64,000 nucleotides of DNA from Klebsiella pneumoniae (GTDB taxonomy: Bacteria; Pseudomonadota; Gammaproteobacteria; Eutrophobiales; Eutrophobiaceae), in the NCBI GenBank assembly GCA_945878555.1, contig CAMDWI010000010.1, forward strand, positions 6,559 through 70,558, read 5' to 3'. This document shows, piece after piece, positions 492 through 49,927 of the stretch. The position numbers and the translations under genes were made by a program. Position 1 is the stretch's first letter; each line of letters begins with the position of its first letter. The notes under the pieces are model-generated. The model did no database searches. It was not told the origin of the DNA and saw nothing but the letters and a program-made list of their open reading frames with translations.

Positions 492-2483
492 ATGATATCC
501 AGGTACAGTGGTAAATTTTCTTCAAAATGGGTGGCCAGCTGTATAGGTTTGATGCTGACGGGGGTAACAGGCATCGATGCCTTCGCGGCACCGGCACCGT
601 ATGCTGATACTGTTATCATCAATGGAAAGGTCATCACCGCCGATTCAGACGATATCAAGGCGATAACCATTGCCGAGGCCATCGCGATCCAGGGTGAACG
701 TATCCTCGCTGTAGGCACGAATAGCGAAATCCAGAAGCTGGTTGCCGACTGGACCGAGGTGGTCGATGCGAAAGGCAACACCGTCACGCCGGGTTATATT
801 GATACTCACAATCATATCTACGAGACTTCTACCGGTTTTCCGTGGGTCGTTAAATCTATCCCGGACCTGCTGGAAATCACGGTTCGAGGCAATACACCAC
901 AAGAACTGACCGACAAGGTGGTTCAGGCCGTTGAGGCGCGGGCGAAGCAGATACCGGCGGGCAAGTGGATCCGCATTGCGATGGGACCTCCGGCAATCGC
1001 CGTGCCGGCGATGAACACGGACCTGCTGAATCGTGCGGCGATCGATAAGGTCGCACCTAACCATCCGGTTTTGATCACCACCCGTGGCGGTTCTATCCTG
1101 AATGGTGCGTCTATTGCGGCTATCGAAGCCTATTATGGTAATGACTTGCCGGCCGATTACTGGATGGTTGATAAAGAACGGGGCTGGTCGGGGGATTATA
1201 CTGACTTCGGGCGTTGTACCAGTCTGGATCTGATTGGTACGCAGGATCAGGAGACCTTTAACAAGTACATCAAGGGTTACTTCGAAGTCATGCAGGCGAA
1301 TGCACAGATAGGTGTGACGACATACAAGAGCCATATCCAGTGCGAAGGCGGATTCAGTGCGACCAATCATATGGATCGTAATGACCTGATGCCGATACGG
1401 ATGGCGTGGGACCATCGTTGGCTGCAACCATTCTCTGACAGTATTGCCGAGTCTTATCGACGTATTGGTGATTTTGTAGGTAGTGGTTCCAACTTCTTCT
1501 TCAGTACCGGCAGTAGTGTTGGTGGTATTGATGCCGGGGGTGTGGGCTGGTGTACTTCAATGGTGGCCAAAAGTCCGGAAATCAAGATGCGTGAGCAGTG
1601 CCCACCTGAGCCGGAGGGTATTGATATCAAGGCGATAGATACATCCAATACCGGGGTTGGTACCGAAACGAAGAACCGGGGCCGTCGTACCGAGCATCTG
1701 GTCACGCTGGCGAAGCTGGCAGCGGAAGGTCGTATGACCAACATCCCTGGCTGGCATTCGGCCGGTGATGGTGCAACCGAGATTATGATGAAAACCTACC
1801 TGCATTATATGCCGCCGGAACGCATCAGGATGCTGCGCACCACGAGCGACCATTGCCATTCCGTGACACCGGAAGAGATCGAGAACGCCGCGCGCACGGG
1901 CCATACTTTTTCCTGTGATGCGACCGAAGTCCCGACCCAGGTCATCAAGGAAGGTTACGGTGAAGAATACCTGACCTGGAATGCGCCGGTCGCCAGTATG
2001 ATGAAGGCCGGTGTGAATACCGTTATCAGCCAGTTTGGTATTGAAACCGAATTGCGTGATTCGCCTTTTGAAGACGGAGTAATGTGGTTGACCCGCAAGA
2101 TCAACGGCGAGACCTGGGGTGTACCGGAAGAGGCTGTGCCGGATAAAATGACTTTGCTGCTGATGATGACCCGCCGTGCCGCCTATCCAATCTGGAAGGA
2201 ACATATGCTCGGATCAATTGAACCCGGTAAAATGGCTGATATTGTCATCCTGAATGGTGACTATATGGCCACACCGGTAGAGGAACTCGATAAGCTGACC
2301 TCAGTGATGACGTTGATTGGTGGCAAGGTATCTTACGAAGCCCCTGAACTGCGGGGTAACACATTCCGTTTTAATACGGCAGATGCGAGCTGGACGATCG
2401 ACATGAAGACACCAACGTCAATCTGGCGCTGGACGGAAGTGCCGAAGATCCCGCCGTTCCTGAACGGAGCCAACGGGTACTGA
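492..2483 (+). CDS. Secreted metal-dependent amidohydrolase (Amidohydro_3 / COG1574-like TIM-barrel hydrolase), tandem paralog 1
   Basis: 663-aa ORF with an N-terminal signal peptide (hydrophobic stretch then AFAAPAP). It has the amidohydrolase metal-binding motif VTPGYIDTHNHIYE (HxH) and the C-terminal GSIEPGKMADIVILNGD signature typical of Amidohydro_3 proteins. It has four paralogs in the window. Confidence 0.85.
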   Translation: MISRYSGKFSSKWVASCIGLMLTGVTGIDAFAAPAPYADTVIINGKVITADSDDIKAITIAEAIAIQGERILAVGTNSEIQKLVADWTEVVDAKGNTVTPGYIDTHNHIYETSTGFPWVVKSIPDLLEITVRGNTPQELTDKVVQAVEARAKQIPAGKWIRIAMGPPAIAVPAMNTDLLNRAAIDKVAPNHPVLITTRGGSILNGASIAAIEAYYGNDLPADYWMVDKERGWSGDYTDFGRCTSLDLIGTQDQETFNKYIKGYFEVMQANAQIGVTTYKSHIQCEGGFSATNHMDRNDLMPIRMAWDHRWLQPFSDSIAESYRRIGDFVGSGSNFFFSTGSSVGGIDAGGVGWCTSMVAKSPEIKMREQCPPEPEGIDIKAIDTSNTGVGTETKNRGRRTEHLVTLAKLAAEGRMTNIPGWHSAGDGATEIMMKTYLHYMPPERIRMLRTTSDHCHSVTPEEIENAARTGHTFSCDATEVPTQVIKEGYGEEYLTWNAPVASMMKAGVNTVISQFGIETELRDSPFEDGVMWLTRKINGETWGVPEEAVPDKMTLLLMMTRRAAYPIWKEHMLGSIEPGKMADIVILNGDYMATPVEELDKLTSVMTLIGGKVSYEAPELRGNTFRFNTADASWTIDMKTPTSIWRWTEVPKIPPFLNGANGY

Positions 2484-2687: not shown

Positions 2688-2716
2688 TTGACATTAGAGT
2701 AAAAGACGCATAATGT
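2688..2716 (+). promoter_or_regulatory. Sigma70-like promoter upstream of amidohydrolase paralog 2
   Basis: TTGACA at 2688-2693. The -10 candidates are CATAAT at 2709-2714 (15-nt spacer) or TAATGT at 2711-2716 (17-nt spacer). It lies ~60 nt upstream of the ATG at 2776. Confidence 0.45.
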
Positions 2717-2775
2717 TTAACGTTAATTTCAGTTGGTTGTTTCAAGGGTTTTCCTTTTATTCAGGGGGTACGACG

Positions 2776-4764
2776 ATGTCCGAGTACAGTGGTAAATTTA
2801 ATTCAAAATGGGCAGGCAGCTGTGTTGGCCTGGTTCTGGCTGGCATATTAAGCGGTGGTGTCTCTGCGGCACCTTCCCCATATGCCGAAACAGTCATCAT
2901 CAATGGCAAGGTCATCACCGCAGATTCAGATGACATCAATGCCGTCACAATTGCAGAAGCCGTCGCAATAAAAAATGACAAGATTATGGCTGTAGGCACA
3001 AACGCCGAGATCCAGAAGCTGGTTGCCGACTGGACCGAAGTTGTTGATGCGAAAGGCAATACGGTCACACCGGGTTATATCGATACCCACAATCATATTT
3101 ATGAGACAGCGACCGGTTTCCCCTGGGTTGTCAAATCAATCCCGGACCTGCTGGAAATTACGGTCAGGGGCAAGACACCGGAAGAACTGACCCAGAAGGT
3201 GATACAGGCTGTTGAGGCCCGTGCCAAGCAGATTCCTGCCGGCAAGTGGATACGCATTGCGATGGGACCACCGGAAACGGCTGTGCCGGCAATGAACAAG
3301 AACCTATTGAATCGTGCGGCGATTGACAAAATCGCCCCGAACCATCCAGTGCTGATTACCACCCGCGGTGGTTCCATCCTGAACGGTGCGTCGATTGCTG
3401 CTATTGAAGCCTATTATGGCAACGAACTGCCGGCCGACTACTGGATGGATGGCAAGGAGCGCGGTTGGTCTGGTGACTATACCGACTTCGGTCGTTGTAG
3501 CAGTCTGGATCTGATAGGTACGCAGGATCAGGAGACCTTTAACAAGTATATCAAGGGTTACTTCGAGGTTATGCAGTCGAATGCGCAGATAGGTGTGACC
3601 ACCTATTCCAGCCATATCCAGTGCGAAGGCGGTTTCAGTGCGACCAATCATATGGATCGTAACGACCTGATGCCGATCCGTATGTCCTGGAACCATCGCT
3701 GGTTACAGCCGTTCTCTGACAGCATTTCCGAGTCCTATCGCCGTATCGGTGACTTTGTCGGTAATGGTTCTGACTTCTTCTTCAGCACCGGTAGCAGCGT
3801 AGGTGGTATCGATGCCGGTGGTGTGGGCTGGTGTACCTCCATGGTTGCCAAGAGCGATGAAATCAAGATGCGTGAACAGTGCCCTCCGGCACCGGAAGGC
3901 ATCGAGCTGAATGCGTGGAAGAACCGCCCGGCGGATGATCCGAGTATTGCCGCAAATCGTGGCCGTCGTACCGAACATCTGGTAACACTGGCAAAGCTGG
4001 CAGCAGAAGGTCGTATGAGCAACATCCCTGGCTGGCATTCAGCTGGTGACGGTGCTACCGAGATCATGATGAAGACCTACCTGCATTATATGCCACCGGA
4101 ACGCATCAAGATGCTGCGTACCCAAAGCGACCATTGTCATTCGGTAACACCGGAAGAAATCGAGATTGCTTCCCGCACCGGTCATACCTTCTCCTGTGAC
4201 GCGACCGAGGTCCCGACCCAGGTTATCAAGGAAGGCTACGGTGAAGAGTATCTGACCTGGAACGCACCGGTTGCCAGTATGATGAAAGCTGGTGTTAATA
4301 CAGTTATCAGTGAGTTCGGTATTCAGGGTGAGTTGCGTGATTCCCCGTTTGAAGATGGTGTTGCCTGGTTAACCCGCAAAATCAATGGCGAGACCTGGGG
4401 TGTGCCTGAAGAGGCTGTGCCAGATAAAATGACACTGTTGCTGATGATGACCCGTTGGGGCGCCTACCCGCTGTGGAAGGAAAATGCTCTGGGTTCGATT
4501 GAGGTTGGCAAGCTGGCTGATATCGTTATCCTCAACGGCGATTATATGGCCACTCCGGTTGAAGAGTTGACCAAGCTGACATCAGTAATGACATTTATCG
4601 GTGGCAAGGTGTCCTATGAGGCCCCTGAACTGAGAGGCAATACCTTCCGGTTCAATACCGCAGATGCGAGTTGGACGATCGACATGAAGACACCAACGTC
4701 AATCTGGCGCTGGACGGAAGTGCCGAAGATCCCGCCGTTCCTGAACGGTGCCAACGGGTATTGA
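2776..4764 (+). CDS. Secreted metal-dependent amidohydrolase (Amidohydro_3-like), tandem paralog 2
   Basis: ORF 2713..4764. I prefer the ATG at 2776 (MSEYSGKFNSKW...) because it aligns with the start of paralog 1 (MISRYSGKFSSKW...). It has a signal peptide and the HxH motif VTPGYIDTHNHIYE. It is about 85% identical to paralog 1 overall, and the last ~33 codons are almost identical at the nucleotide level. Confidence 0.85.
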   Translation: MSEYSGKFNSKWAGSCVGLVLAGILSGGVSAAPSPYAETVIINGKVITADSDDINAVTIAEAVAIKNDKIMAVGTNAEIQKLVADWTEVVDAKGNTVTPGYIDTHNHIYETATGFPWVVKSIPDLLEITVRGKTPEELTQKVIQAVEARAKQIPAGKWIRIAMGPPETAVPAMNKNLLNRAAIDKIAPNHPVLITTRGGSILNGASIAAIEAYYGNELPADYWMDGKERGWSGDYTDFGRCSSLDLIGTQDQETFNKYIKGYFEVMQSNAQIGVTTYSSHIQCEGGFSATNHMDRNDLMPIRMSWNHRWLQPFSDSISESYRRIGDFVGNGSDFFFSTGSSVGGIDAGGVGWCTSMVAKSDEIKMREQCPPAPEGIELNAWKNRPADDPSIAANRGRRTEHLVTLAKLAAEGRMSNIPGWHSAGDGATEIMMKTYLHYMPPERIKMLRTQSDHCHSVTPEEIEIASRTGHTFSCDATEVPTQVIKEGYGEEYLTWNAPVASMMKAGVNTVISEFGIQGELRDSPFEDGVAWLTRKINGETWGVPEEAVPDKMTLLLMMTRWGAYPLWKENALGSIEVGKLADIVILNGDYMATPVEELTKLTSVMTFIGGKVSYEAPELRGNTFRFNTADASWTIDMKTPTSIWRWTEVPKIPPFLNGANGY

Positions 4765-4874: not shown

Positions 4875-5309
4875 ATGAAAAATTTTGGTCAGTTCACTCT
4901 CTGTACAGTTGCGGTAATGCTGTTCGTCCTTTTACCGTTACGGCTGGTATGGTCTGCTGATGAAAATGCATCAGTGGCCCAGGTCTATCTGGAGTTTGAT
5001 CCTGCGACCGGTCAGTTTGTCTCAGTGCCAGCAACGGCTGAAAACAGTCCGGACGGTGCAAATGGAATGGGTGGTAGCACAGCCCCTCATGCTGCAACAG
5101 CCACACCGGATGCAGCGGGTGCTTCTTCTGCAACGGGTACGGCTGCTGCTGTCACTGCTGCACCGCAATCCCAGGCTGCGGCTGACGGAACTGCCGCCGT
5201 GGACGCATCTGCTCCTGCTGCGGGTGGTCTTTCACCGGTGCTGATCGGTGCTGTAGTCCTGATTGCACTGGGTGGAGTTGTAATGATGATGCGGAAGAAA
5301 ACCGCGTAG
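4875..5309 (+). CDS. Small secreted/anchored protein, amidohydrolase-associated family member A (signal peptide, YLEFDPATGQF motif, Ala/Thr-rich linker, C-terminal TM + RKK tail)
   Basis: ORF 4857 (GTG)..5309. I prefer the ATG at 4875 (MKNFGQFTLCTVAVMLFVLLPLRLVWSA is a good signal peptide). The mature part starts with ...VAQVYLEFDPATGQFVSVPA. An Ala/Thr/Gly-rich low-complexity region follows, then the hydrophobic segment VLIGAVVLIALGGVVMMM and an RKKTA end. The same architecture and motif recur in the ORFs at 29990-30370 and 43270-43644. An Ala-rich ORF can be a frame artefact, but the family recurrence argues that this one is real. Confidence 0.6.
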   Translation: MKNFGQFTLCTVAVMLFVLLPLRLVWSADENASVAQVYLEFDPATGQFVSVPATAENSPDGANGMGGSTAPHAATATPDAAGASSATGTAAAVTAAPQSQAAADGTAAVDASAPAAGGLSPVLIGAVVLIALGGVVMMMRKKTA

Positions 5310-5417: not shown

Positions 5418-5532
5418 ATGACTCCCACCCGACTTTCTGTCGGGTCCACTGTCTGATCACGTGGAGATAGAAATCTATACCGGATAACTTATACTGCCTG
5501 CCTTGATTGAAAATCCGGGTCCGGACGGGAAA

Positions 5533-10116: not shown

Positions 10117-10128
10117 CAGGAATGCACA

Positions 10129-28068: not shown

Positions 28069-29937
28069 ATGAAAATTTCGAGGGGGAGAGTCGCGACTTT
28101 AATGGCTACCGTTGCTTGTGTCGTGATGCCTGCAATAGCCGCCGCCCAGCCACAGCTGGTCATGAATTATGCTGACACCGTACTTTATAACGGCCAGATA
28201 ATTACGGCAGACGACGCCTTTTCCATCAAGGAGGCGATTGCCATACGCGATGGCAAGTTTCTCGCCGTAGGCAAAACCGACGAAATCATGCCGCTGGCAG
28301 GTCCTGAGACCCGCAAGATAGACCTGCAGGGGAAGTCGGTGACACCCGGTTTTATATATTCGGATGGAGATAATGCGGTTCCCGGTGGTGATCTGGTCAA
28401 GGATTCACAATGGAACGGCACGATCCAGGGGCAGATTGGTGGAGATACACTGGAACAGATTGAGCAGACCATCACCCACATTGCCGAGAATGAGGCGCTG
28501 CCTGGCGAGATCGTCTTTATCAAGACGGCAGATAACTGGGCCGGCAAGATACTGGAGACCTGGAACAAGGATACGCTGGACGAGTTATCCCCGAATAATC
28601 CCACCCTGCTTTTACCCGATTGTTGCTATGCAATAGCGAACAGCGCCCTGATTAAGTTGATGCTGGAAAAAGGATTCCCACCCGATCACCTGCATCTGAT
28701 GAAGGATGCTAACGGCAATATTACTGGTCAACTCGGGGCGAACGCCGTTGGTTTTGTCGGTCGCGAGCTACGCCCGTTTCCGCCACCGGAATGGATACAG
28801 GAGAATGGCGTCAAGGCAGCCAGGGAGATGATTAAGGAATACGCTGCTGAAGGAATTACGCTGGCGACTGGGCATATGACCGGACTGACAGTGCTGATCC
28901 TGAACCACCTTTTCAAGGACGGAACGCTGGCGATGCGTGTACACCCGGCACTCGATCTGATGCGTCAGAATGCCTTCCCGGAGCGGACGCTGGGCCGGGT
29001 GGGAAATCTGATGGACTTTGCCTTGTCTGATAAACGTGGGCCGATGGTACAGATTGTCGGTACAGCTGTGGGGCCACACACTGGCGCACCCGATGCCGCC
29101 ATCGGTCTGATGACGCTGGAGGCGAAGACCAACATCCTGCCGGAACTCGGCAAGAACGCACACGGTTATGACCGCTGGAGTGGTCAGTTCTTCAACGACA
29201 AGGGCACAATGCAACTGACCGACGAACAACGCAAGGACACCGAATACCATAACTTTATGCTCGCACGCCAGTACGGATATAACGTGAATGGTGTTCATAA
29301 TATGGGTAGCGGTGGCATCATGCTGTCAATGGAGCTGATCGTTGCGGCAGAAGCCCAGAAGCAGCTGTATGAACCAAATCTGTCGAGGGCACAGGCACTG
29401 GATCATAACATCGACTGGATGCCGGAGAATTTTGAATATTTCAAACAGCACAAGGAACTGCTGACAAAATATCTGCGGGTCGGTGTCAGCCTGAGTACCG
29501 CAATGAGACAACGCGATGCGAAGATGTTTGGTTATGAAGACGTCGTTTCCGCCCAGTATGGTTGGGACGGTCTGGAACGTATGGCACCGTTACGTTCGCT
29601 GTTGGAGGCCGGTATTCCGTTTCATATAGAAGGAACAGACCCGAAGAACAAGCCATTGTCCATTGTTAAGGACGCGGTCACGCGTATTGACCGCAAGGGC
29701 AGGGTTGTTGCCCCGCAAGAGGCATTGACGCGTGAGCAGGCTATCATGGCGATAACCCGTTGGGGTGCCAGGTTTATCAGTGCGGAACACCTGTTTGGCA
29801 CGATTGAGGCCGGGAAATATGCCGACCTCGTTGTATTTGATGGCGACGTGATGAAAGCGCCAATCGAGCAGATTGATCAGATCCGTCCGGTGTTGACACT
29901 GGTGGGTGGCGAGGTCGCCTTCGAAGCCAAACCGTAA
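28069..29937 (+). CDS. Secreted Amidohydro_3-like protein lacking the canonical N-terminal HxH metal motif
   Basis: 622 aa. RBS GAGGAG; signal peptide ending AIAAAQP. It is collinear with the other amidohydrolases and keeps the C-terminal GTIEAGKYADLVVFDGD signature. At the position of ...PGYIDTHNHI it reads ...PGFIYSDGDNA instead. Confidence 0.8.
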   Translation: MKISRGRVATLMATVACVVMPAIAAAQPQLVMNYADTVLYNGQIITADDAFSIKEAIAIRDGKFLAVGKTDEIMPLAGPETRKIDLQGKSVTPGFIYSDGDNAVPGGDLVKDSQWNGTIQGQIGGDTLEQIEQTITHIAENEALPGEIVFIKTADNWAGKILETWNKDTLDELSPNNPTLLLPDCCYAIANSALIKLMLEKGFPPDHLHLMKDANGNITGQLGANAVGFVGRELRPFPPPEWIQENGVKAAREMIKEYAAEGITLATGHMTGLTVLILNHLFKDGTLAMRVHPALDLMRQNAFPERTLGRVGNLMDFALSDKRGPMVQIVGTAVGPHTGAPDAAIGLMTLEAKTNILPELGKNAHGYDRWSGQFFNDKGTMQLTDEQRKDTEYHNFMLARQYGYNVNGVHNMGSGGIMLSMELIVAAEAQKQLYEPNLSRAQALDHNIDWMPENFEYFKQHKELLTKYLRVGVSLSTAMRQRDAKMFGYEDVVSAQYGWDGLERMAPLRSLLEAGIPFHIEGTDPKNKPLSIVKDAVTRIDRKGRVVAPQEALTREQAIMAITRWGARFISAEHLFGTIEAGKYADLVVFDGDVMKAPIEQIDQIRPVLTLVGGEVAFEAKP

Positions 29938-29956: not shown

Positions 29957-29992
29957 GGCCCTCACTTCCATGCGGGAGTGGGGGCTTTTTTA
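29957..29992. terminator. Terminator-like imperfect hairpin followed by a T-run, between convergent genes
   Basis: CCCTCACTTCC-atgcg-GGAGTGGGGG then CTTTTTTAT. It lies between the stop of 28069-29937 (+) and the stop of 29990-30370 (-). Confidence 0.45.
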
Positions 29993-30370
29993 TGTTGGTG
30001 ATTTCCTGAAAAACAGGCTGGCCAGGCCAAGACTGAACAGCATCAATACAGCCGTGAAAGGGGCCTTCATAGACTGTAACGGCAAAACTGGCTGTGTACC
30101 CGCAGCGCTGGTTATAGCAGGGGGCTCAAGACTTCCAGCAGAGGGACCACTGACTGCTTGTGCATTGGAGTCCGGTTTTGTTGTCGTATATTTACCAGTA
30201 ACCGGGTCGACATAGATCAGGTAGGCGGGTGTATCACGATCACTTGCAGCCGCCGGGCGTGGATAAATTGCGCCACACAATACCAGCAGCATCACCGACA
30301 GAAAAACAGCTGTCTGGACTACTCTGGACGAATGCTGTCCGTTATCAACAGACAGAAAGATCAAGCTCAT
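29990..30370 (-). CDS. Small secreted/anchored protein, amidohydrolase-associated family member B
   Basis: 126 aa. Its ATG overlaps the TGA of the upstream amidohydrolase (ATGA at 30367-30370). N-terminal signal/TM, then ...PAYLIYVDPVTGKYTTTKP, a Ser/Ala/Pro-rich linker, the C-terminal hydrophobic segment FTAVLMLFSLGLASLFF and a basic RK tail. Confidence 0.65.
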   Translation of the reverse strand: MSLIFLSVDNGQHSSRVVQTAVFLSVMLLVLCGAIYPRPAAASDRDTPAYLIYVDPVTGKYTTTKPDSNAQAVSGPSAGSLEPPAITSAAGTQPVLPLQSMKAPFTAVLMLFSLGLASLFFRKSPT

Positions 30371-32220
30371 TGCGCTGCCGATTCCCAGAGTTTGGCGTCA
30401 AATACCAGTTTACCCCCGATATAGGTCAGATCAATACCAAGCTTGTCGATGTCGGAATCCGCGACTGCTACAAAATCTCCATTGAGTACGCTGATATCAG
30501 CCCATTTCCCGGGTTCCAGCGAACCCAGTTCATCTTCTTCCCCGATAAATCGCGCAACATTGATCGTCAGCATCTTCAGCGCGGTCATCCGGTCTATCGC
30601 CTGATCGGCACCCCATACCTTGCCATTATGGTCGGTACGTGTCACAAACCGTTCTATCAGCCAGGTGGGATGGTTATGCGGATCGGTCCCTTCAATGTGC
30701 AAACTGTAGCCGCGAGCCAGCAGGTCCTTGACCGGCTGCATCGTGTGCATTTTTTCGCCATATTGAGATTCCAGCAACGGGCGACCGTTGACCGACATGC
30801 GCTGGTCGAAGATCTCCGGGCTGAGCGCCATGGCGACATTGTCCCGGTATTTGTCGATCAGGGGATAGTTCGACTCATGCCAGACCAGATTGTGATCAAA
30901 GGCATTCGGCTTGCGTGCCTTGAAATACGGCTTCACACTGGTATTGAAATTGTCGATGGCGAGCAGGTTGGTCCGCAGGGCCGCGCTACCCATGTTGTGG
31001 TTCCCGCTCATATTCCAGCCGTATTTCAACAGCAGGCTGACAGTATTGTAGTCGGTCTGGGCCTTCAGGTCGTCCGTCATATCGTCCCAGGTCAGGCCGG
31101 TCCAGACCTCGCCGGTCCATTTGTTCAGCCCACGTGGTGTACCACCAATCTCCGGGTCGACCTTCTCCTTGTCATCGATGGTCAGCATGCCGAACTGGCT
31201 GTTGGAACCGTCATCGACCGGGCCGGTGGCAGCACCCACGATCTTCACCATCGGGCCGCGTACCGCGTCTGTCAGCGCAAAATTGACCAGATTGCCGACC
31301 CGTTTCAGATACTGTTCTGCGAACGGATTCTGGCGAATGAAGTCATGTCCCGGATACACACGGATATCGAGCTTGCCATCATGAAACAGCGAGTTCAGCA
31401 GACTGGTGGTCAATCCACTCATATGACCGGTTATTGTCGTCACACCCACGGAGAGATAGCCGCGCAGTACAGCAACGGTTTCTTCGTGTGCCTTTTCGAT
31501 ATATTCCGGGCTGGGCCAGGGCCTGACCTGCCAACCGATAAATCCGGCAGCCTGCTGGAACAGCTGTCCTGTCGGTTTGCCGTCGGCGTCCTTGACGACA
31601 CCGAACATATTCGGGTCCAGACCGGATTCCATAGCACGCTCCATCATGGCACTGTTTACGACTGCGACGGAGTCATTATAAAACAGCGCAATCGGATGGT
31701 CCGGGGATACCTCATCGAGGTCATTTGCGGTCCATTCCTCCGCCTGCCGTGGTGAGGCCTTGGGCATGTTAATGAATACCGGTTCTTCGGGTCGTGCCTT
31801 CGCTATCACCTCGCCGATAGAGTTCAGTAACTCGTCCATTTTTGCGCCGGTGATACGTTCTGTCGAGAGGGCACCGTCCACCTGGGTCATCTTGTAGATA
31901 TCACCCGCCGGTACGGCGCTGTCGCCGTCGTTATAGATAAAACCTGGCGTAACGGTCCTGCCCGAGAGGTCGACCTTTTGCGTCTGTGGACCGGCCAGTT
32001 CGAGTATCTCGATTGTCTTGCCTGTAGCAAGCACACGACCGTCACGTACGGCAATGGCTTCGGTAATCGTATTGTTTTGATCCAGTGTCAGCACCTTGCC
32101 GTTGAACATGATCAGTTCAGGATATTTGATCAGGATTTGGGGCTGGGCATGGCCAACAGTGTTATACAAGAAAAACAGCAATATTGTAGTAATTGATAAC
32201 TTTACTGATGGTATATGCAT
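30367..32220 (-). CDS. Secreted Amidohydro_3-like protein lacking the canonical N-terminal HxH metal motif (paralog of 28069-29937)
   Basis: 617 aa with a signal peptide (..YNTVGHAQP). It reads ...PGFIYNDGDSAVPAG in place of HxH. The C-terminal signature GSLEPGKWADISVLNGD is present. It is about 50% identical to 28069-29937. Confidence 0.8.
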   Translation of the reverse strand: MHIPSVKLSITTILLFFLYNTVGHAQPQILIKYPELIMFNGKVLTLDQNNTITEAIAVRDGRVLATGKTIEILELAGPQTQKVDLSGRTVTPGFIYNDGDSAVPAGDIYKMTQVDGALSTERITGAKMDELLNSIGEVIAKARPEEPVFINMPKASPRQAEEWTANDLDEVSPDHPIALFYNDSVAVVNSAMMERAMESGLDPNMFGVVKDADGKPTGQLFQQAAGFIGWQVRPWPSPEYIEKAHEETVAVLRGYLSVGVTTITGHMSGLTTSLLNSLFHDGKLDIRVYPGHDFIRQNPFAEQYLKRVGNLVNFALTDAVRGPMVKIVGAATGPVDDGSNSQFGMLTIDDKEKVDPEIGGTPRGLNKWTGEVWTGLTWDDMTDDLKAQTDYNTVSLLLKYGWNMSGNHNMGSAALRTNLLAIDNFNTSVKPYFKARKPNAFDHNLVWHESNYPLIDKYRDNVAMALSPEIFDQRMSVNGRPLLESQYGEKMHTMQPVKDLLARGYSLHIEGTDPHNHPTWLIERFVTRTDHNGKVWGADQAIDRMTALKMLTINVARFIGEEDELGSLEPGKWADISVLNGDFVAVADSDIDKLGIDLTYIGGKLVFDAKLWESAAQ

Positions 32221-39905: not shown

Positions 39906-40087
39906 ACCCCCTTTTGATTTGTTAAATAGGCAACAGTGTTGTTAGTACAACATAAATTACAATAATACAACTGTCAATGCGAATACAAAAGCCCCCCGGA
40001 GGTAAATTCCCCCGTTATTCCTTATTAACTCAAGGAATCTGGATAACGTATTAGCACTACGGGGGAGCTTGTGTCGTTCAGTGGCGT

Positions 40088-41590: not shown

Positions 41591-41674
41591 AGGGATGGTG
41601 GTTATTCGCTGGTGGTAGTTGGAAAAATCCCGGGGACGTATCAGGAGACTGTCCCCGGGACATGCATAGACAAA

Positions 41675-42895
41675 TTATTTCTTGTAGACGTAGTCCTTGT
41701 ATTCTGGCGGAACGTCATACAGTGACTGGTCCATACGGGTGGTATCGCCCTCTTTCGCGAGGATACCTTCGTACTCCTTGCGCAGATACGGGTCTTCCAT
41801 CCAGTACGGGATGGCGGTACCGCCCTCTGGCAGTTCCATGCCGGTATAGTCCATGTGTTTCTCTCCGGGAGGACCCGGGTCACGGCCGGGATTGTGCGGG
41901 CCGAACCAGGCGGTCAGTCGTAACGGCTCCTTCGAGGCGCTGAAATGCTGGTGATACCAGCGGGCTCCGCCAGGTGCGGCGGTTACCATGCCACCGGGTA
42001 TATAATCTATGCGACGGACCTGATCGCCATTGCCGTCCTTCCAGGGGGTGGGTCCCAGATGTTCTGGCCAGGTATAGGTGTAACCCTTGCCTTTCAGACA
42101 GATCAGGATCGCGGCGGAGGTATGCGCATGCGCCTTTGAGTAGCGCCCACCTTCGTGCTGACCAATCCAGAAATAGAAGGAGTTGCGTGTCATGTGCGGT
42201 TCGATGCGGCGCCAGCCCGGTGAGCGGCGGTTATCCAGCGGCAGGTCGCAATTGATGGCGTCCGGGATAAAGTTGGTGCGACGCATGGCCAGTCCGCGTA
42301 CAGGGTCAGTTTCAACATCGGCCTTGTACTTGTAAAAATCGTCCTCGGTGCTGAAGCGGTCGGAAAATACGAACGGGTTATTGAACACCGCATCAATATT
42401 CTGCAAGGAATTAATTACTACCGGTGCGGTTGTGCCTGCCTGCATCAGCGCAGGTGTATTGGTAGCATTCACTATCCGGTGCCAGGCATTCATCGGAATC
42501 GAGAATAACGAGCCTTTCTGCCATTCAAAGATATGTTTTTTGCTTTCCAGGCCATCCAGCCACACCTCGGTTGACCCGCGACCTTCGACGACCAGATAGA
42601 TCTTCTCGAACATGTGGCGTTCCGGGTTCAGTGCGCCAGCGGCAGGAATTTCAACGGCATAACCGCCCCACTTGCCTTCGGTACCATATAACTGGATGTA
42701 GCAGCCCTTGCCACCCACCCGTTTCCAGGGTTTTAAAGGTAGTTCGCGTATATCGCGAATACCGAGCTCACGGAATACCGGGATGCCTTCGGATTCCATG
42801 AATGTATCGTAAGCCAACGGCAGTTTTTTGAACTTGCCGAATCCTGCCCGTTTGCCTTCGGTCGGTTCGACCCAGGGTTTATGCTCGTCTGACAT
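41675..42895 (-). CDS. Bicupin-family protein (paralog of 17742-18857)
   Basis: 406 aa with the cupin motifs SKAHAHTSAAILICLKGKG and RWYHQHFS. Its N-terminal 100 aa is collinear with 17742-18857 (..LVVEGRGSTEVWLDG vs ..MILSGRGSTTVWNDAG). Confidence 0.7.
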   Translation of the reverse strand: MSDEHKPWVEPTEGKRAGFGKFKKLPLAYDTFMESEGIPVFRELGIRDIRELPLKPWKRVGGKGCYIQLYGTEGKWGGYAVEIPAAGALNPERHMFEKIYLVVEGRGSTEVWLDGLESKKHIFEWQKGSLFSIPMNAWHRIVNATNTPALMQAGTTAPVVINSLQNIDAVFNNPFVFSDRFSTEDDFYKYKADVETDPVRGLAMRRTNFIPDAINCDLPLDNRRSPGWRRIEPHMTRNSFYFWIGQHEGGRYSKAHAHTSAAILICLKGKGYTYTWPEHLGPTPWKDGNGDQVRRIDYIPGGMVTAAPGGARWYHQHFSASKEPLRLTAWFGPHNPGRDPGPPGEKHMDYTGMELPEGGTAIPYWMEDPYLRKEYEGILAKEGDTTRMDQSLYDVPPEYKDYVYKK

Positions 42896-43161
42896 GAATT
42901 ACTCCATTTGAAGGTGACAAATTTAAACAGGGTTGGATGATACCTAGTAAGTGAGTTTATTTCCAGTTTACAGCGAAATCCGTTCAATCTTTCATTCAGC
43001 TCCTGATAAAAAAAGGCCTGACGCTACAGCCGGGTAAAAAAAGATGGTTACGACTTTATCACCTGGTCAGAGTGGAATCCTGGATTAATAATCCGGACAC
43101 CCAATCCGGAGACAACAAGCCTGATCCGTGCGAAATTCTTGCACAATGTTGATCTTAGTAA

Positions 43162-43189
43162 TTTATTGACACTCTTATTTTTTTATACT
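43162..43189 (+). promoter_or_regulatory. Possible promoter upstream of the small-protein/amidohydrolase pair (weak)
   Basis: An AT-rich block holds TTGACA (43166-43171) and TATACT (43184-43189), but the spacing is suboptimal (12 nt). Pairing the -10 with TTTATT at 43162 instead gives 16 nt. It sits ~80 nt upstream of 43270. Confidence 0.25.
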
Positions 43190-43269
43190 AGGTTAGCCCG
43201 CTGATAACGGGTTGATATTGTTGTCTGGTATAACCTGTATTTGCAGCGGTATTGAGGGGAACGAGAGTT

Positions 43270-43644
43270 ATGGGCAGGGTCATGTTTATGTTACAGATAA
43301 CAGTATTGTTGATACTGCTGTCTGGCGCCGCCAGTGCATCGGATGGTGATGTCGATTACTCCTCGCCTTACATCACTGTTGACCCCAAGACGGGTCAATT
43401 GATCACAGTAAACCCCGGGCCACGTCTAAAGACTCATTCAGCCGAGGACATGCCGGGGATGTCACAGATGGAGACGGAACAATCACCAGCCCAAACCAGT
43501 CCGGTTGCAAGTCAGCCTGTTGCAGACCAACCGGCAACAGCGACAGACCCTAAACAATCCGGCTTTATCGCCATTGTTGTGGTTGGACTGCTGGTTTTCG
43601 CAACTATGGCATACCGGCGATTAAGGCACCGTCAGCCGGGCTAA
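43270..43644 (+). CDS. Small secreted/anchored protein, amidohydrolase-associated family member C
   Basis: ORF 43252 (TTG)..43644. I prefer the ATG at 43270, which has GAGGGGA 9 nt upstream. Signal peptide MGRVMFMLQITVLLILLSGAASA, then ...SSPYITVDPKTGQLITVNP, a Pro/Gln/Ser/Thr/Ala-rich linker, the hydrophobic segment FIAIVVVGLLVFATMAY and an RRLRHRQPG tail. Confidence 0.65.
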   Translation: MGRVMFMLQITVLLILLSGAASASDGDVDYSSPYITVDPKTGQLITVNPGPRLKTHSAEDMPGMSQMETEQSPAQTSPVASQPVADQPATATDPKQSGFIAIVVVGLLVFATMAYRRLRHRQPG

Positions 43645-43717
43645 CCGAAACAGCCATTTTTTCCTGTACACAAGCAGAATTATTATTTCAGTTTAATTAT
43701 CAGGGGGTAGTCAGATT

Positions 43718-45934
43718 ATGAACAGATACAGATTTTTCCCGGCGATGCTAGCATCGACCTTACTGGCAGCGATGCTTGCACCGGTAGTACCGGCGCAGAC
43801 TACCGCGACCGTACCAAGTGAGCTCGTCAGTTATCCGGAGACGATTGTCGTCAACGGCAAGATATACACGATGGATAACAAGTCGGTCTTGTCGAATGAT
43901 CCAGGTACGGTAGTCGAGGCAATGGTCATCCGTGGTGGCAAGGTCTTCGCGACCGGGAACCGTGCCGACATGATGAAGTTTGCAGGTCCGCAGACCCGTG
44001 TTATTGACGTAAAGGGCAAGACAGTCATACCGGGCATCATCGAAACGCATGTACACCCCGAAAGTACGATGAATGCAGTCCGCCTGTTCGAGGCAGAACG
44101 GGATCAGTATTCATTACCGCCAGGTCTCCATACTGCGATCCTGTTGCCAAGTGACAATGCAGCGGATACCTACGCAGCCGTGGCCGAATTTATCAAGAAA
44201 TATCCACCGGAACCGGGCGAATGGGTCCACATCCGTCTGGTTGAAAATCCCGATACCAATTACCCTGATATAGGTGCTTTGACGAACGGTATTTATAATG
44301 ATTTTCTGACCTTGGGTGAATTCAGCAAGGCCATACCGAATAACCCGGCCACGCTGGCCAGTGGTACCACGCCAAGCGCGATTGAGCAGCCTGGTCTGGT
44401 TGTTCGGGTACGCCTGGCCGATGATGGCAAGGCGAAGATGGAGCCGTTGAGTGTACCGCAGGCGCTGAAAGAACTGACCAATCCTGCGGTCTATGCGGAC
44501 GCACAGGATCCGTTCCGTCAGTTGTTCAAGGAAAACGCCGACAAGGCACGTGAAGATTCCTATCACGCCCACCTTGCACAGGGTTGCGGATATTCTGAAC
44601 TGTACCCGCACCATATGCAGCATTGCAGTCACAGAAATATCCTCCTGAATCAGAAGGGTCTGGACAAGACGCTGGAGTCCTGGCCGGGCTTCAAGGTTGC
44701 AGCGAATGACATGACCGGCCTTAGCAAGTTAGGCAAGGAAGGTGACAGAGGTATTGTGGGTGGAGTATTCCAGGAAAGTGGTGCCTGGGAGCGGGTGATC
44801 AATCCGCCAAGGATGCCAAGGCAGTTGACCATGGACCTGCTCGAAGGTGCGCTGAAAATGTACACCAGTGCCGGTGTGACCATGCTGGCGTCCAGCGTGG
44901 AATACGGCACAGCCATGACCGCTGTTTATGACCTGCTGCGCCGTGACAAGCGTCTGCCGGTCAGGTGGGGTTATGGGTTTGAAATGTTCAGAAGCCCGGT
45001 GATGTACCCGAACAATGCGCTGACAGTGGTCGAGATGGGTGCGCACCACGGCTCTATCGATACGAATGAATGGTTCTGGCCGATGGGTATCACCGACGGC
45101 GGTGTGGGTGACTCCCGTCAGGTGGCCTGTTTCGGCGATGATTTGCCCGGTCCCGAGATGTTAAAGAGCAGGGAGTTATGCTGGGAAGAAGACGCCTATC
45201 GTATCAAGAAGGTCCTGCAGCCAGCATTGATGACAGGCTGGCGTCCATTCAGTCTGCATTCATTTGGCAGCGAGGCGTTCAGAAAGCATGTGGCCTGGAT
45301 TGAAGAGGCCAGGGTAATGGGTCGTATGTCAATGGATGATATCCGTGCCTTACGTATTGGCTTTGCCCACGGTGGTGCTATCGGCAAGGTGCCCGAGGTT
45401 GTTGAGTTGATGAAGCGTTACAACCTGTATGTGCCTATCCAGCCGAATGACGTATCAGCCTCGCTGACCCAGGTGAAACGCTACGGACCGGAAGGCCTGG
45501 AGTTTCTGGCCCCGACCAAGACATTGCTTGAGGCCGGTGTACATATCGTCGGCGAGACCGAGTACAGTCATCCGCGCCCGGACATCTATTTCAATGCGCT
45601 GGACATGTTTGTAAATCGCCGTGTAAGACATGAAAGCATGCCGAAGGGTGAAGGCGAGATAGTGATGCCGGAAGAGGCTGTCAGCCGAGCAACCGCATTG
45701 CGCCTGTATACCAGCAAGGCAGCAGAGTGGCTGTTTGCCGAACATGTGGCCGGAACACTGGAGCCGGGCAAGTTTGCTGACTTTACCGTGCTGGAGCGCG
45801 ATTACTTTACGGTACCCGCAGATGAAATCCTGGACAACAAGGCCATCATGACACTCGTTGGTGATCAGATTATCTATCAGGATCCTGAATACAAGCCGGG
45901 AATTGCCACCGCGAATGCGACGGCGGCACAGTAA
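43718..45934 (+). CDS. Secreted metal-dependent amidohydrolase (Amidohydro_3-like), long form
   Basis: 738 aa. RBS GGGGG; signal peptide ..LAPVVPAQT. The HxH motif is VIPGIIETHVHPES and the C-terminal signature is GTLEPGKFADFTVLERD. Confidence 0.8.
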   Translation: MNRYRFFPAMLASTLLAAMLAPVVPAQTTATVPSELVSYPETIVVNGKIYTMDNKSVLSNDPGTVVEAMVIRGGKVFATGNRADMMKFAGPQTRVIDVKGKTVIPGIIETHVHPESTMNAVRLFEAERDQYSLPPGLHTAILLPSDNAADTYAAVAEFIKKYPPEPGEWVHIRLVENPDTNYPDIGALTNGIYNDFLTLGEFSKAIPNNPATLASGTTPSAIEQPGLVVRVRLADDGKAKMEPLSVPQALKELTNPAVYADAQDPFRQLFKENADKAREDSYHAHLAQGCGYSELYPHHMQHCSHRNILLNQKGLDKTLESWPGFKVAANDMTGLSKLGKEGDRGIVGGVFQESGAWERVINPPRMPRQLTMDLLEGALKMYTSAGVTMLASSVEYGTAMTAVYDLLRRDKRLPVRWGYGFEMFRSPVMYPNNALTVVEMGAHHGSIDTNEWFWPMGITDGGVGDSRQVACFGDDLPGPEMLKSRELCWEEDAYRIKKVLQPALMTGWRPFSLHSFGSEAFRKHVAWIEEARVMGRMSMDDIRALRIGFAHGGAIGKVPEVVELMKRYNLYVPIQPNDVSASLTQVKRYGPEGLEFLAPTKTLLEAGVHIVGETEYSHPRPDIYFNALDMFVNRRVRHESMPKGEGEIVMPEEAVSRATALRLYTSKAAEWLFAEHVAGTLEPGKFADFTVLERDYFTVPADEILDNKAIMTLVGDQIIYQDPEYKPGIATANATAAQ

Positions 45935-46269: not shown

Positions 46270-47289
46270 ATGTCGATGACGACTGAACAGCAGCCTGCTG
46301 CCGACCTGCCGAAGCTGGAGCAGGTGCATGACAGTATCGTTGCACTTGAGAATGAGGTCCGGAAACGTATTGTGGGTATGGACAAGGAGATGGATCAGAC
46401 CCTGATTTGTCTGTTTGCCGGTGGTCACATCCTGCTCGAAGGTGTACCTGGACTCGCCAAGACCCTGTTTTTCAAGACACTGGCCGAAGCGGCAGATGTC
46501 GAGTTTCGCCGTATTTCGTTTGCAGCAGATCTGTTACCCAAGGACATTATCGGAATCGAGCATTTTGATTTTGCCACCAAGAAGCTGGAGCTGGTGGTCA
46601 AGGGGCCGCTGCATACCAACTTCCTGTTAACGGATGAATTGAACCGTGCCCGTACCAGCTCAAAGGGTTCTGTACTGGAGCCGATGGAAGAAGGCCAGGT
46701 TACGACGGAGTTGGGGGGGACCTATAAACTGAAAGAACTGTTTATGGTAATCGCCACCCAGAATCCGGTGGAGGAAGAGGGTACCTTCGGCCTCGGCAGG
46801 GCAGAAAAGGACAGATTTCTGATGATGGTACCGCTCGGCTATCCCTCGCCGGAAGACGAGGAGACCATCATTACCCGCTACGGAGTTACGGGTGGTATGC
46901 CGGTTATCAAGCCGGTCATCCATGAAAAAGAAATACTGGCAGCACGCAAGGCCATCCGTTCCGGTGTGCATGTCGAGCCGTCAATCGTGCATAAAATCCA
47001 GCAGATCCTGAATGAGACCCGCCCGGAACGTACGGGGATAACCAGTATAAAACAGCTGGTTCAGCGTGGTGGTGGCGCGTCTCCCCGTGCTGGCCTCAGC
47101 ATGATCCAGGCAGCACGCGTCCATGCCGTATTGCAGGGTAATGCGTTTGTCCGACCGGATGATATTGCTGCCGTTGTATTACCGATATTGCGTCATCGTC
47201 TGGTCTTCAAGCCAGGTGAAGTTGAACTGGAAGAGACGGAAGTTCGCCTGCACGAAATTATTGATGAAATAATCAGCAAGGTGCTCTGA
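46270..47289 (+). CDS. MoxR-family AAA+ ATPase (second copy)
   Basis: RBS AGGAG. Walker A LEGVPGLAKT and Walker B LLTDELNRA. 339 aa; paralogous to 9088-10116. Confidence 0.85.
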   Translation: MSMTTEQQPAADLPKLEQVHDSIVALENEVRKRIVGMDKEMDQTLICLFAGGHILLEGVPGLAKTLFFKTLAEAADVEFRRISFAADLLPKDIIGIEHFDFATKKLELVVKGPLHTNFLLTDELNRARTSSKGSVLEPMEEGQVTTELGGTYKLKELFMVIATQNPVEEEGTFGLGRAEKDRFLMMVPLGYPSPEDEETIITRYGVTGGMPVIKPVIHEKEILAARKAIRSGVHVEPSIVHKIQQILNETRPERTGITSIKQLVQRGGGASPRAGLSMIQAARVHAVLQGNAFVRPDDIAAVVLPILRHRLVFKPGEVELEETEVRLHEIIDEIISKVL

Positions 47290-47291
47290 CC

Positions 47292-49918: not shown

Positions 49919-49927
49919 CAGGGCAGT

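What the first reader, a model, noticed from the sequence alone, without database searches (positions are those of the whole stretch)
43252..43644. Small-protein member C sits immediately upstream of the 738-aa amidohydrolase (same pairing, opposite gene order)
In this third locus the small anchored protein (signal peptide, YITVDPKTGQLITV motif, PQSAT-rich linker, TM, RRLRHR tail) precedes the amidohydrolase by 73 nt on the same strand. At 4875 the small gene follows the amidohydrolase instead. Linkage is therefore kept while gene order varies. That pattern fits a functional pairing more than a polar operon artefact.
Basis: seen in the sequence. Interest (0 to 1): 0.7.

Follow-up and report, generated by a model that had tools for sequence, protein, structure and literature searches.

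The report
Small membrane-anchored partner of periplasmic amidohydrolases
A real 124-residue gene encodes an exported, membrane-anchored mini-protein from an undescribed family that sits next to a periplasmic amidohydrolase gene in every locus examined; it probably tethers or modulates that enzyme, but it is dispensable, because several related genomes have lost it.

Summary
The ORF is real, although its start is ATG 43270 (124 aa), not TTG 43252. It has a signal peptide, a 33-residue conserved module (DGDVDYSSPYITVDPKTGQLITVNPGPRLKTH), a disordered A/S/T/P/Q linker, one TM helix and a basic tail. It ends 73 nt before a 738-aa Amidohydro_3 (YtcJ-like) gene.

The window holds three such small genes (A, B, C) and five amidohydrolase paralogues. 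The family has no Pfam or NCBIfam model. It is rare (59 clusters by word search, 255 representatives by full HMM) and occurs mostly in uncultured Gammaproteobacteria (order UBA4486, Woeseiaceae).

In all 25 distinct loci with enough flank, the small gene is adjacent to an amidohydrolase. Gene order is fixed within a subtype: C lies upstream or divergent, A and B lie downstream.

The reverse does not hold. Most paralogues have no partner, and the gene was lost at least twice within the C-orthologue clade.

My best reading (about 0.4) is a C-tail-anchored periplasmic adaptor whose N-terminal beta-hairpin docks the enzyme at the inner membrane. Binding is inferred, not shown. This is an undescribed family of a familiar general kind, of moderate interest.

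The parts
43139..43196 (+). Conserved upstream block (TTGCACAAT ... AGTAATTTATTGACACTCTTATTTTTTTATACTAGGTTAG). It includes a perfect -35-like TTGACA at 43166-43171 and is a candidate promoter/operator for the small gene plus the amidohydrolase.
   Evidence: Invariant across window, L067, L001, L068 and L078 while the flanks diverge. The exact pattern occurs in only 5 loci. It is unique in the window, with 0 matches in shuffles. No hexamer pair here passes the sigma-70 scan.
43254..43259 (+). Shine-Dalgarno-like GAGGGG, 10 nt before ATG 43270.
   Evidence: Read from the sequence. Conserved in orthologues. It accounts for the apparent 'VLRG' conservation upstream of the true start.
43270..43644 (+). 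Small-protein member C coding sequence (124 aa plus stop).
   Evidence: the exact 124-aa product is called in public assemblies; codon-level purifying selection.
43270..43338 (+). Signal peptide (aa 1-23). The predicted SPase I site is ASA|SD.
   Evidence: Hydrophobic N-terminal segment; AF2 helix 2-17. An A-x-A-like site followed by an invariant Asp at mature position 2 in all 62 aligned members. Cleavage is inferred, not tested.
43339..43437 (+). Conserved periplasmic module (aa 24-56): SDGDVDYSSPYITVDPKTGQLITVNPGPRLKTH, a predicted beta-hairpin / mini-sheet.
   Evidence: 26 invariant columns in 18 C-type sequences that are otherwise 39-50% identical. AF2 strands 28-30, 34-37, 44-47, 51-53 with pLDDT about 88. 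8 synonymous and 0 non-synonymous changes.
43438..43560 (+). Low-complexity disordered linker (aa 57-97), rich in P/Q/S/A/T.
   Evidence: pLDDT below 50 for aa 64-93. 1 synonymous and 9 non-synonymous changes. Family-wide the linker has a median of 55 aa and is A/S/T/P/G/Q-rich with no Cys.
43561..43641 (+). C-terminal transmembrane helix (aa 98-115) and basic cytoplasmic tail RRLRHRQPG (aa 116-124).
   Evidence: AF2 helix 94-120. 188 of 195 family members have a C-terminal hydrophobic helix and 189 of 195 have at least 2 K/R in the tail. 6 synonymous and 0 non-synonymous changes.
43645..43717 (+). 73-nt intergenic spacer with AGGGGG (43702-43707) ahead of the amidohydrolase ATG. No terminator-like hairpin.
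43718..45934 (+). 738-aa periplasmic YtcJ-like amidohydrolase (Amidohydro_3), the partner of member C. The HxH motif is present and it has an N-terminal signal peptide.
   Evidence: Pfam PF07969 E 4.6e-35. AF2 mean pLDDT 78.6. Closest solved structures are 3icj and 3igh, both uncharacterised hydrolases. HxH alignment.
4875..5309 (+). Small-protein member A (144 aa), downstream of the tandem amidohydrolases 492..2483 and 2713..4764.
   Evidence: A-type context is conserved in L073-75 and the P0021 contig.
29990..30370 (-). Small-protein member B (126 aa). It overlaps the stop of the 617-aa amidohydrolase (30367..32220, minus strand) by 4 nt and is convergent with the 622-aa amidohydrolase 28069..29937 (+).

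Best explanation
Member C is a Sec-exported, C-tail-anchored (N-out, C-in) inner-membrane mini-protein. Its only conserved extracytoplasmic part is a 33-residue N-terminal module. This module is predicted to fold as a beta-hairpin around a DPxTG turn and is held on a flexible tether of about 40-55 residues.

The most likely mechanism is that the hairpin module binds the adjacent, Sec-exported periplasmic YtcJ-like amidohydrolase, for example by adding strands to one of its beta-sheets. That would keep the enzyme at the outer face of the inner membrane, next to the uptake systems encoded alongside (TctABC-type transporters, with TonB-dependent receptors feeding the periplasm).

The protein would be an accessory, not an obligatory subunit: the enzyme persists in lineages that have lost the small gene.

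Shown: gene reality, architecture, selection pattern, exclusive adjacency, and repeated loss. Inferred: signal cleavage, topology, and same-compartment location. Not shown: physical binding and any effect on localisation or activity.
For: Architecture:
- Signal helix, beta-strands at pLDDT about 88, a disordered linker and a C-terminal helix.
- The same layout appears in about 190 of 195 fetched family members.

Selection:
- It is concentrated on the module and the TM/tail and relaxed in the linker.
- The module evolves more slowly than the enzyme. For example, it is 93% identical where the enzymes are 74% identical, and 73% where they are 56%.

Linkage:
- The amidohydrolase is the only constant neighbour in 25 of 25 distinct loci, across upstream, downstream, divergent and overlapping arrangements.
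- The cupin, MoxR/VWA, HupE-like, Tct and TonB-receptor neighbours come and go.
- Module subtype tracks enzyme clade (Spearman 0.78, 0 of 2000 permutations).
- B disappears together with the 617-aa enzyme in L005 and L017, while the neighbouring 622-aa enzyme stays.

Compartment:
- Both proteins carry N-terminal signal peptides.
- None of 118 amidohydrolase paralogues has its own C-terminal anchor.

Dispensability fits an accessory or localisation role.
Against: - No direct test of binding was possible.
- Enzymes that lost the partner show no clustered or convergent substitutions that would mark a relaxed interface. Of 414 columns invariant among partnered enzymes, 28 differ, and these are scattered. 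The sample is small.
- L071 pairs a C-like module (57-73% identical to C-types) with an enzyme only 26-30% identical to the C partners. Module sequence is therefore not strictly dictated by enzyme clade and could recognise something else.
- Most paralogues, and a third of the orthologues, work without it.
- The module/enzyme correlation is expected for any co-inherited neighbours.
Confidence: 0.4

Rival explanations
1. Maturation or metal-delivery helper. The acidic N-terminal module acts transiently in the periplasm to load metal into, or assist folding of, the Sec-exported and therefore unfolded amidohydrolase, rather than anchoring it. Relevant features are the invariant Asp at mature position 2, further Asp/Glu residues, and a conserved His in C-types.
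For: Family-wide invariants are D25 plus the D38-P39-x-T41-G42 turn. C-types also conserve D27, D29 and H56. A-type genes are always followed by a DUF6702-HupE_UreJ_2 membrane protein; HupE/UreJ proteins are annotated as Ni/Co permeases. MoxR/VWA chaperone-like cassettes sit beside the A and C loci.
Against: The HupE-like and MoxR genes are absent from many C- and B-type loci that keep the small gene. B partners lack the HxH metal ligands yet keep a small partner. No known metal-binding motif is present. Loss of the small gene leaves the enzyme intact.
Confidence: 0.15
2. Pathway accessory that does not touch the enzyme. The tethered hairpin binds another conserved periplasmic or envelope component and is merely co-regulated with the amidohydrolase. 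Candidates are a substrate-binding protein of the Tct transporter, a TonB-dependent receptor, or peptidoglycan.
For: A C-like module is shared by two very different enzyme clades (L071). The module is more conserved than the enzyme. There is no interface signature in enzymes that lost it. TonB-dependent receptors and TctABC genes are frequent in these islands.
Against: No neighbour other than the amidohydrolase is constant. B is translationally coupled to its enzyme by a 4-nt overlap. Subtype tracks enzyme clade.
Confidence: 0.2
3. Sorting-signal substrate. The C-terminal TM helix plus basic cluster is a PEP-CTERM/GlyGly-CTERM-like tag that is cleaved by an exosortase or rhombosortase, releasing or re-attaching a small peptide.
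For: Low-complexity region, TM helix and basic tail at the extreme C-terminus. Sub-threshold PEP-CTERM hits occur in 10 of 62 members (best E 0.0081). GG_III-CTERM scores 14.2 bits for member A. A-types have a recurrent GG-x-SP before the helix.
Against: All hits are below the curated cut-offs and there is none for member C. No signature motif is conserved across subtypes; C has SGFIAI, B has KAPFTA. No sortase-type gene was seen in any of the neighbourhoods listed. The TM and tail are under purifying selection as a unit, which fits a permanent anchor as well.
Confidence: 0.08
4. Tethered pseudo-substrate or regulator. The free mature N-terminus (X-Asp-...) or the hairpin occupies the active site or a lid of the amidohydrolase and modulates its activity.
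For: An invariant Asp at mature position 2 is seen in all 62 aligned members, whatever the subtype. The short module is extremely conserved. The protein is dispensable.
Against: Purely inferential. The enzyme's substrate is unknown, since the closest structures are uncharacterised. There is no structural model of a complex.
Confidence: 0.12

Closest known systems
C-terminal sorting domains (PEP-CTERM/exosortase, GlyGly-CTERM/rhombosortase, LPXTG/sortase)
   Same: Low-complexity spacer, one hydrophobic helix and a cluster of basic residues at the extreme C-terminus. Weak sub-threshold profile matches.
   Different: No PEP, GG or LPXTG signature is conserved across the family. All scores are below the curated cut-offs and member C has none. 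The protein is tiny, with its conserved part at the other end. No sortase-type gene appears in the neighbourhoods.
Tail-anchored subunits of periplasmic enzymes, e.g. the C-terminal anchors of [NiFe]-hydrogenase small subunits and formate dehydrogenase FdnH (from my own knowledge, not tested here)
   Same: A single C-terminal TM helix holds a periplasmic catalytic unit at the inner membrane.
   Different: In those systems the anchor is part of a redox subunit exported by Tat. Here it would be a separate 124-aa Sec-type protein with a hairpin adaptor, and the enzyme is a hydrolase.
Small obligate partners of amide hydrolases, e.g. AtzG with the amidase AtzE, which is GatC-like (from my own knowledge)
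   Same: A short protein encoded beside an amide-bond hydrolase and acting with it.
   Different: AtzG is soluble, cytoplasmic and required. The enzyme family differs (amidase signature, not the amidohydrolase superfamily). The protein here is exported, membrane-anchored and dispensable.
Mucin-like type I single-pass proteins (podoplanin, endomucin)
   Same: Signal peptide, S/T/P/A-rich extended ectodomain, one TM helix and a short tail. Sub-threshold Pfam matches reflect this composition.
   Different: These are eukaryotic families. The hits rest on composition only, so there is no homology.
DPETG-type beta-hairpin turns, as in the GB1 hairpin and the designed mini-protein chignolin GYDPETGTWG (from my own knowledge)
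   Same: An aromatic/hydrophobic strand, then D-P-x-T-G, then a return strand. AF2 predicts strands 34-37 and 44-47 around the turn.
   Different: This is only a local structural motif. It says nothing about function.
YtcJ-like Amidohydro_3 enzymes (PDB 3icj, 3igh), for the partner enzyme
   Same: Pfam PF07969 above the cut-off. Best fold and sequence matches.
   Different: The partner is about 200 aa longer, with a His/Cys-rich insertion. It is periplasmic. No substrate is known for either.

Membership tests
Any curated protein family (Pfam-A, NCBIfam) for the small protein | Profile score at or above the curated cut-off | tested here: not met
   Pfam gives 0 families at E<=0.01 for A, B and C. 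Scanning all 62 members at E<=1 gives only composition-driven sub-threshold hits. The best NCBIfam hit for C is anchor_EppA at 15.6 bits against a cut-off of 90.
PEP-CTERM / exosortase substrates | PEP (Pro-Glu-Pro) motif directly before the C-terminal TM helix, with a profile score above the cut-off | tested here: not met
   PF07589 matches 10 of 62 members only sub-threshold (best E 0.0081) and does not match member C. There is no PEP motif in C (…DPKQSGFIAIVVV…), A or B.
PEP-CTERM / exosortase substrates | An exosortase (EpsH/Xrt) gene in the genome | not testable with these tools
   Only the 64-kb window and fetched loci are available. None of the listed neighbourhoods shows one.
GlyGly-CTERM / GG_III-CTERM (rhombosortase) | Gly-Gly signature before the helix, with an NCBIfam score above the cut-off | tested here: not met
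   NF041738 scores 14.2 bits against a cut-off of 22 for member A only, and gives nothing for B or C.
LPXTG sortase substrates | LPXTG motif, with a TIGR01167 score above the cut-off | tested here: not met
   TIGR01167 scores 11.8 bits against 15.9 for A only. No LPXTG motif is present, and the hosts are Gammaproteobacteria.
The new small-protein family itself (signal peptide - X-D-x-[DEN] - hairpin [DN]PxTG - linker - TM - basic tail) | Full-length architecture and a profile match | tested here: met
   Member C scores 7.6e-39 against the family HMM. The invariant columns D25, D38, P39, T41 and G42 are present.
The new small-protein family itself | Adjacency to an Amidohydro_3 gene | tested here: met
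   The gap to the 738-aa enzyme is 73 nt. 25 of 25 distinct family loci are adjacent.
Amidohydro_3 / YtcJ-like metal-dependent hydrolases (partner enzyme) | PF07969 above the gathering score | tested here: met
   122.4 bits against a cut-off of 29.7.
Amidohydro_3 / YtcJ-like metal-dependent hydrolases (partner enzyme) | HxH metal-ligand motif after the first barrel strand | tested here: met
   ETHVHPES is present in the 738-aa enzyme and invariant in its clade. It is absent from the 617- and 622-aa paralogues.
Amidohydro_3 / YtcJ-like metal-dependent hydrolases (partner enzyme) | Catalytic activity and substrate | not testable with these tools
   The closest solved structures, 3icj and 3igh, are uncharacterised.

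The most novel reading that the evidence does not exclude
These genes define a previously undescribed family of C-tail-anchored periplasmic adaptor proteins. Their 30-residue N-terminal beta-hairpin specifically captures a cognate soluble amidohydrolase, with three or more hairpin subtypes for three or more enzyme clades. This would build membrane-tethered hydrolase stations that couple periplasmic amide hydrolysis to uptake in uncultured aquatic Gammaproteobacteria.
Probability: 0.35. Interest if true: 0.6.

Novelty: new variant of a known kind. Interest (0 to 1): 0.45.

Why it matters
Small membrane proteins are routinely left as 'hypothetical'. Here, a family with no curated model shows one of the cleanest gene-neighbour rules one can get (25 of 25 loci), with a strongly expanded set of periplasmic amidohydrolases, in abundant but uncultured aquatic Gammaproteobacteria (UBA4486 / Ca. 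Eutrophobiales, Woeseiaceae).

If the hairpin is a docking module, it would show a simple and portable way for Gram-negative cells to hold soluble periplasmic enzymes at the membrane. It would also supply a 33-residue tag with a defined partner.

The family further flags these amidohydrolase islands, which carry TonB-dependent receptors, bicupins, Tct transporters and MoxR/VWA cassettes, as a coherent but uncharacterised system for using organic nitrogen or amide compounds.

If the protein is only an ordinary accessory, the practical gain is a family definition and a corrected start codon.

Tried and rejected
- **Metagenome scan with the whole-family alignment.** The C-type-only scan gave just 6 loci.
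- **Interface signature in enzymes that lost the partner.** Differences are scattered and there are no convergent changes. Uninformative at this sample size.
- **Natural fusions (Rosetta stone).** None of 118 amidohydrolase paralogues has a C-terminal anchor, and no amidohydrolase ORF matches the hairpin HMM. The few long proteins hit by the family profile (P0200, P0225, P0268, P0271) match through repeated DPxTG strands. P0271 is a repeat protein with a true PEP-CTERM tail, so it is not a family member.
- **Rfam.** No RNA family is present anywhere in the window. The terminator-like hairpin at 43192-43216 is not conserved in orthologues, so I rejected it as an attenuator.
- **Sigma-70 scan.** It does not call a promoter in 43100-43200. 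TTGACA at 43166 lies only 12 nt from TATACT, or 17 nt from a weak TAGGTT.
- **Lipoprotein or Tat routes for the enzymes.** I rejected these from the N-terminal sequences: no lipobox after a hydrophobic region and no twin-arginine.
- **Literature.** Searches on Eutrophobius/UBA4486, YtcJ and small membrane partners found nothing about this pairing.

Full report
**1. The observation**

An ORF occupies 43252..43644 on the + strand. The TTG at 43252 is only the first possible start. A GAGGGG Shine-Dalgarno sequence (43254-43259) sits 10 nt before ATG 43270. Public gene calls give exactly the 124-aa product that starts at that ATG. That protein lies in a 90%-identity cluster of 26 natural variants, and all 15 listed are 124 aa long. 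I therefore place the CDS at 43270..43644.

The 73-nt gap to the next gene is also exact. Pfam assigns the 738-aa product to Amidohydro_3 (PF07969, E 4.6e-35).

A six-frame motif scan finds exactly three such small proteins in the window:
- A at 4875..5309, after two tandem amidohydrolases.
- B at 29990..30370 on the minus strand. It overlaps the stop of a 617-aa amidohydrolase by 4 nt and is convergent with a fifth amidohydrolase at 28069..29937.
- C, the present finding.

**2. The gene is real and under selection**

I compared C with a 90%-identical orthologue (L067). The changes split as follows:
- aa 25-56 (conserved module): 8 synonymous, 0 non-synonymous.
- TM helix plus tail: 6 synonymous, 0 non-synonymous.
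- linker: 1 synonymous, 9 non-synonymous.

Eighteen C-type sequences that are only 39-50% identical overall keep 26 invariant columns, all within DGDVDYS[SA]PYITVDPxTGQ[LV][IV]TxNPGPxLKxH.

AlphaFold2 run on that alignment predicts:
- a signal helix (2-17);
- four short strands (28-30, 34-37, 44-47, 51-53) at pLDDT about 88;
- a disordered stretch (64-93, pLDDT below 50);
- a C-terminal helix (94-120).

The strands 34-37 and 44-47 flank the DPKTG turn. From my own knowledge, this is the classic hairpin turn of GB1 and chignolin.

By the positive-inside rule the basic tail is cytoplasmic and the module is periplasmic. The amidohydrolase also starts with a signal peptide. The two products should therefore meet in the periplasm. 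This is an inference from sequence, since no signal-peptide predictor was available.

**3. The family**

Neither Pfam nor NCBIfam has a model for it.

- A word-indexed search of 5.8 billion proteins found 59 clusters, all 100-167 aa.
- A full HMM search of 1.84 billion representatives found 255 at E<=1e-3 and 90 at E<=1e-10. Nearly all are 80-170 aa and match end to end.
- Of 200 fetched members, 195 carry the [DN][PA]x[TA]G turn, 188 have a C-terminal hydrophobic helix and 189 have at least two K/R in the tail. The linker has a median length of 55 aa, is A/S/T/P/G/Q-rich and contains no Cys.

Three subtypes match the three window genes:
- A: WSADENASVAQVYLEFDPATGQF.
- B: ASDRDTPAYLIYVDPVTGKY.
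- C: as given above.

Across all 62 aligned members the invariant residues are an Asp at mature position 2 and D-P-x-T-G.

Hosts are uncultured Gammaproteobacteria. Most belong to GTDB order UBA4486, also named Ca. Eutrophobiales (PMC11758582). Others are Woeseiaceae and some soil and sediment organisms.

**4. Linkage, tested in both directions**

*Starting from the small gene.* Every distinct locus with enough flank has an Amidohydro_3 gene directly adjacent: 25 of 25 (built). The only locus without one is L067, where the contig ends 52 nt after the small gene.

The arrangement is subtype-specific:

| Subtype | Position relative to the enzyme | Distinct loci |
|---|---|---|
| C-type | upstream, same strand | 10 |
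| C-type | divergent | 3 (L012, L013, L018) |
| A-like | downstream | 8 |
| B-like | downstream | 4 |

Distant members follow the same rule (P0204, P0232, P0256). No other neighbour is constant. The bicupin, EutA-like protein, TonB-dependent receptor, TctABC, DUF6702-HupE_UreJ_2 and MoxR-DUF58-VWA genes come and go.

*Starting from the enzyme.* A scan of 185,579 species genomes with an alignment of the 738-aa clade returned 66 loci. These come from a handful of MAGs that each carry many paralogues. Only 10 of the 66 loci hold a small gene.

Within the strict orthologue clade (69-86% identity, same EutA-like/cupin synteny):
- The small gene is present in the window, L001, L002/L080, L003, L004, L068, L069, L078 and L085.
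- It is absent in L005, L017, L084 and L087, where the cupin-amidohydrolase spacer is only 156-197 nt.

A neighbour-joining tree places the absences on two separate branches, so there were at least two losses. A third presence/absence split separates L012/L013/L018 from L011/L014. The small protein is thus specific to these enzymes but dispensable for them.

**5. Mechanism**

The anatomy is that of a tether: a short, extremely conserved periplasmic module on a long floppy spacer, fixed to the inner membrane by a conserved tail anchor.

Several lines point to the enzyme as the thing being held:
- The amidohydrolase is the only invariant neighbour.
- Module subtype tracks enzyme clade (Spearman 0.78 between module and enzyme identities, 0 of 2000 permutations).
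- B disappears together with its 617-aa enzyme, while the adjacent 622-aa enzyme remains.
- None of 118 paralogues has its own anchor.

I therefore favour a docking adaptor that keeps the soluble enzyme at the membrane near the co-encoded uptake systems, with confidence of about 0.4.

The caveats are real:
- The correlation is expected for any co-inherited neighbours.
- Enzymes that lost the partner show no clustered or convergent changes.
- L071 combines a C-like module with an enzyme only 26-30% identical to the C partners.

These caveats keep alive four rival readings:
- a helper in metal loading or folding;
- a pseudo-substrate or regulator using the invariant X-Asp N-terminus;
- a binder of a different envelope component;
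- least likely, a cleavable sorting signal, for which all PEP-CTERM, GlyGly and LPXTG profile scores are below cut-off and there are none for C.

**6. Regulation**

There is no terminator-like hairpin between the small gene and the enzyme, and an AGGGGG ribosome-binding site precedes the enzyme's ATG. Co-transcription is therefore likely.

Upstream, a 58-nt block (43139-43196) is invariant in orthologues of 80% identity or more while its flanks diverge. It is unique in the window. It contains a perfect TTGACA, but the consensus scan calls no sigma-70 promoter there. It is best described as a conserved candidate promoter/operator. The divergent C-type loci show that co-transcription is not required for the association.

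**7. The enzyme**

The AlphaFold2 model has mean pLDDT 78.6. The closest solved relatives, by sequence and by fold, are the uncharacterised YtcJ-like hydrolases 3icj and 3igh. No substrate can be named.

**8. Verdict**

This is an undescribed family. The kind of thing it appears to be, a small membrane-anchored accessory of a periplasmic enzyme, is familiar. Interest is moderate.

Noticed in passing
window 492-2483, 2713-4764, 28069-29937, 30367-32220 (-), 43718-45934; loci L001-L066: The window carries five Amidohydro_3 paralogues in 64 kb. Single MAGs of this lineage carry many more: at least 8 separate loci come from the 2.18-Mb contig of L_MB228 and 5 from Ca. Eutrophobius brisbanensis. 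This is a lineage-specific expansion of exported YtcJ-like hydrolases.
   Followed up: partly
window 30367-32220 (-) and 28069-29937 (+); L071 539-2482; L003 6870-8750: The 617-aa and 622-aa paralogues and their relatives lack the HxH metal-ligand motif. It is replaced by FIY[NS]DGD[NS] with a 5-residue deletion. They may be catalytically divergent or inactive, yet the 617-aa one keeps a small partner.
   Followed up: partly
window about 44570-44632 (aa 285-305 of the 738-aa enzyme): The 738-aa clade has an insertion of about 200 aa relative to its paralogues. It contains a nearly invariant His/Cys-rich stretch, HAHLxQGCG…YPHHxQHCSHR. AF2 models this stretch with pLDDT below 50 (residues 283-303). 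It could be an extra metal or redox site.
   Followed up: no
L036, L037, L039, L041, L044, L062 (e.g. L037 4450-10240): Tandem arrays of three or four exported proteins of about 460-470 aa match only residues about 302-733 of the 738-aa enzyme. They lack the N-terminal half that contains HxH. They are conserved in several UBA4486 genomes.
   Followed up: no
window 8078-13027 and 46270-51953: Two MoxR(AAA_3)-DUF58-VWA/BatA-like cassettes are present. Each lies immediately beside an amidohydrolase plus small-gene cluster. The same juxtaposition recurs in L001, L004, L011-L013, L018, L069 and L078.
   Followed up: partly
window 5503-6615 (+); L073-L075 6644-7729: A 370-aa DUF6702-HupE_UreJ_2 membrane protein always follows the A-type small gene. 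After it comes a protein of about 250 aa with no Pfam match. This hints at metal handling in the A-type module.
   Followed up: partly
window 37290-42895 (-): A TonB-dependent receptor, an EutA-like protein (PF06277, E 2e-116, with no ethanolamine lyase genes nearby) and a 406-aa bicupin are conserved divergently from the C pair in most orthologous loci. A second bicupin (13256-14398) and receptor (14727-17450) flank the A cluster.
   Followed up: partly
window 35573-37069 (-); L073 2178-3689; L011-L014, L018 (493-494 aa): A protein of about 495-500 aa with no Pfam match recurs next to TonB-dependent receptors or amidohydrolases in these islands. Whether these copies are homologous to one another was not checked.
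   Followed up: no
window 43139-43196: A 58-nt intergenic block is perfectly conserved among orthologues whose proteins are 82-97% identical, while the surrounding intergenic DNA diverges. It contains TTGCACAAT and TTGACA.
   Followed up: yes
L004, L010, L060 (record titles): Some source MAGs carrying these loci are labelled Anaerolineales or Klebsiella pneumoniae. Their loci are syntenic with, and 55-73% identical to, the UBA4486 ones. These labels are probably binning or labelling errors in the public records.
   Followed up: no
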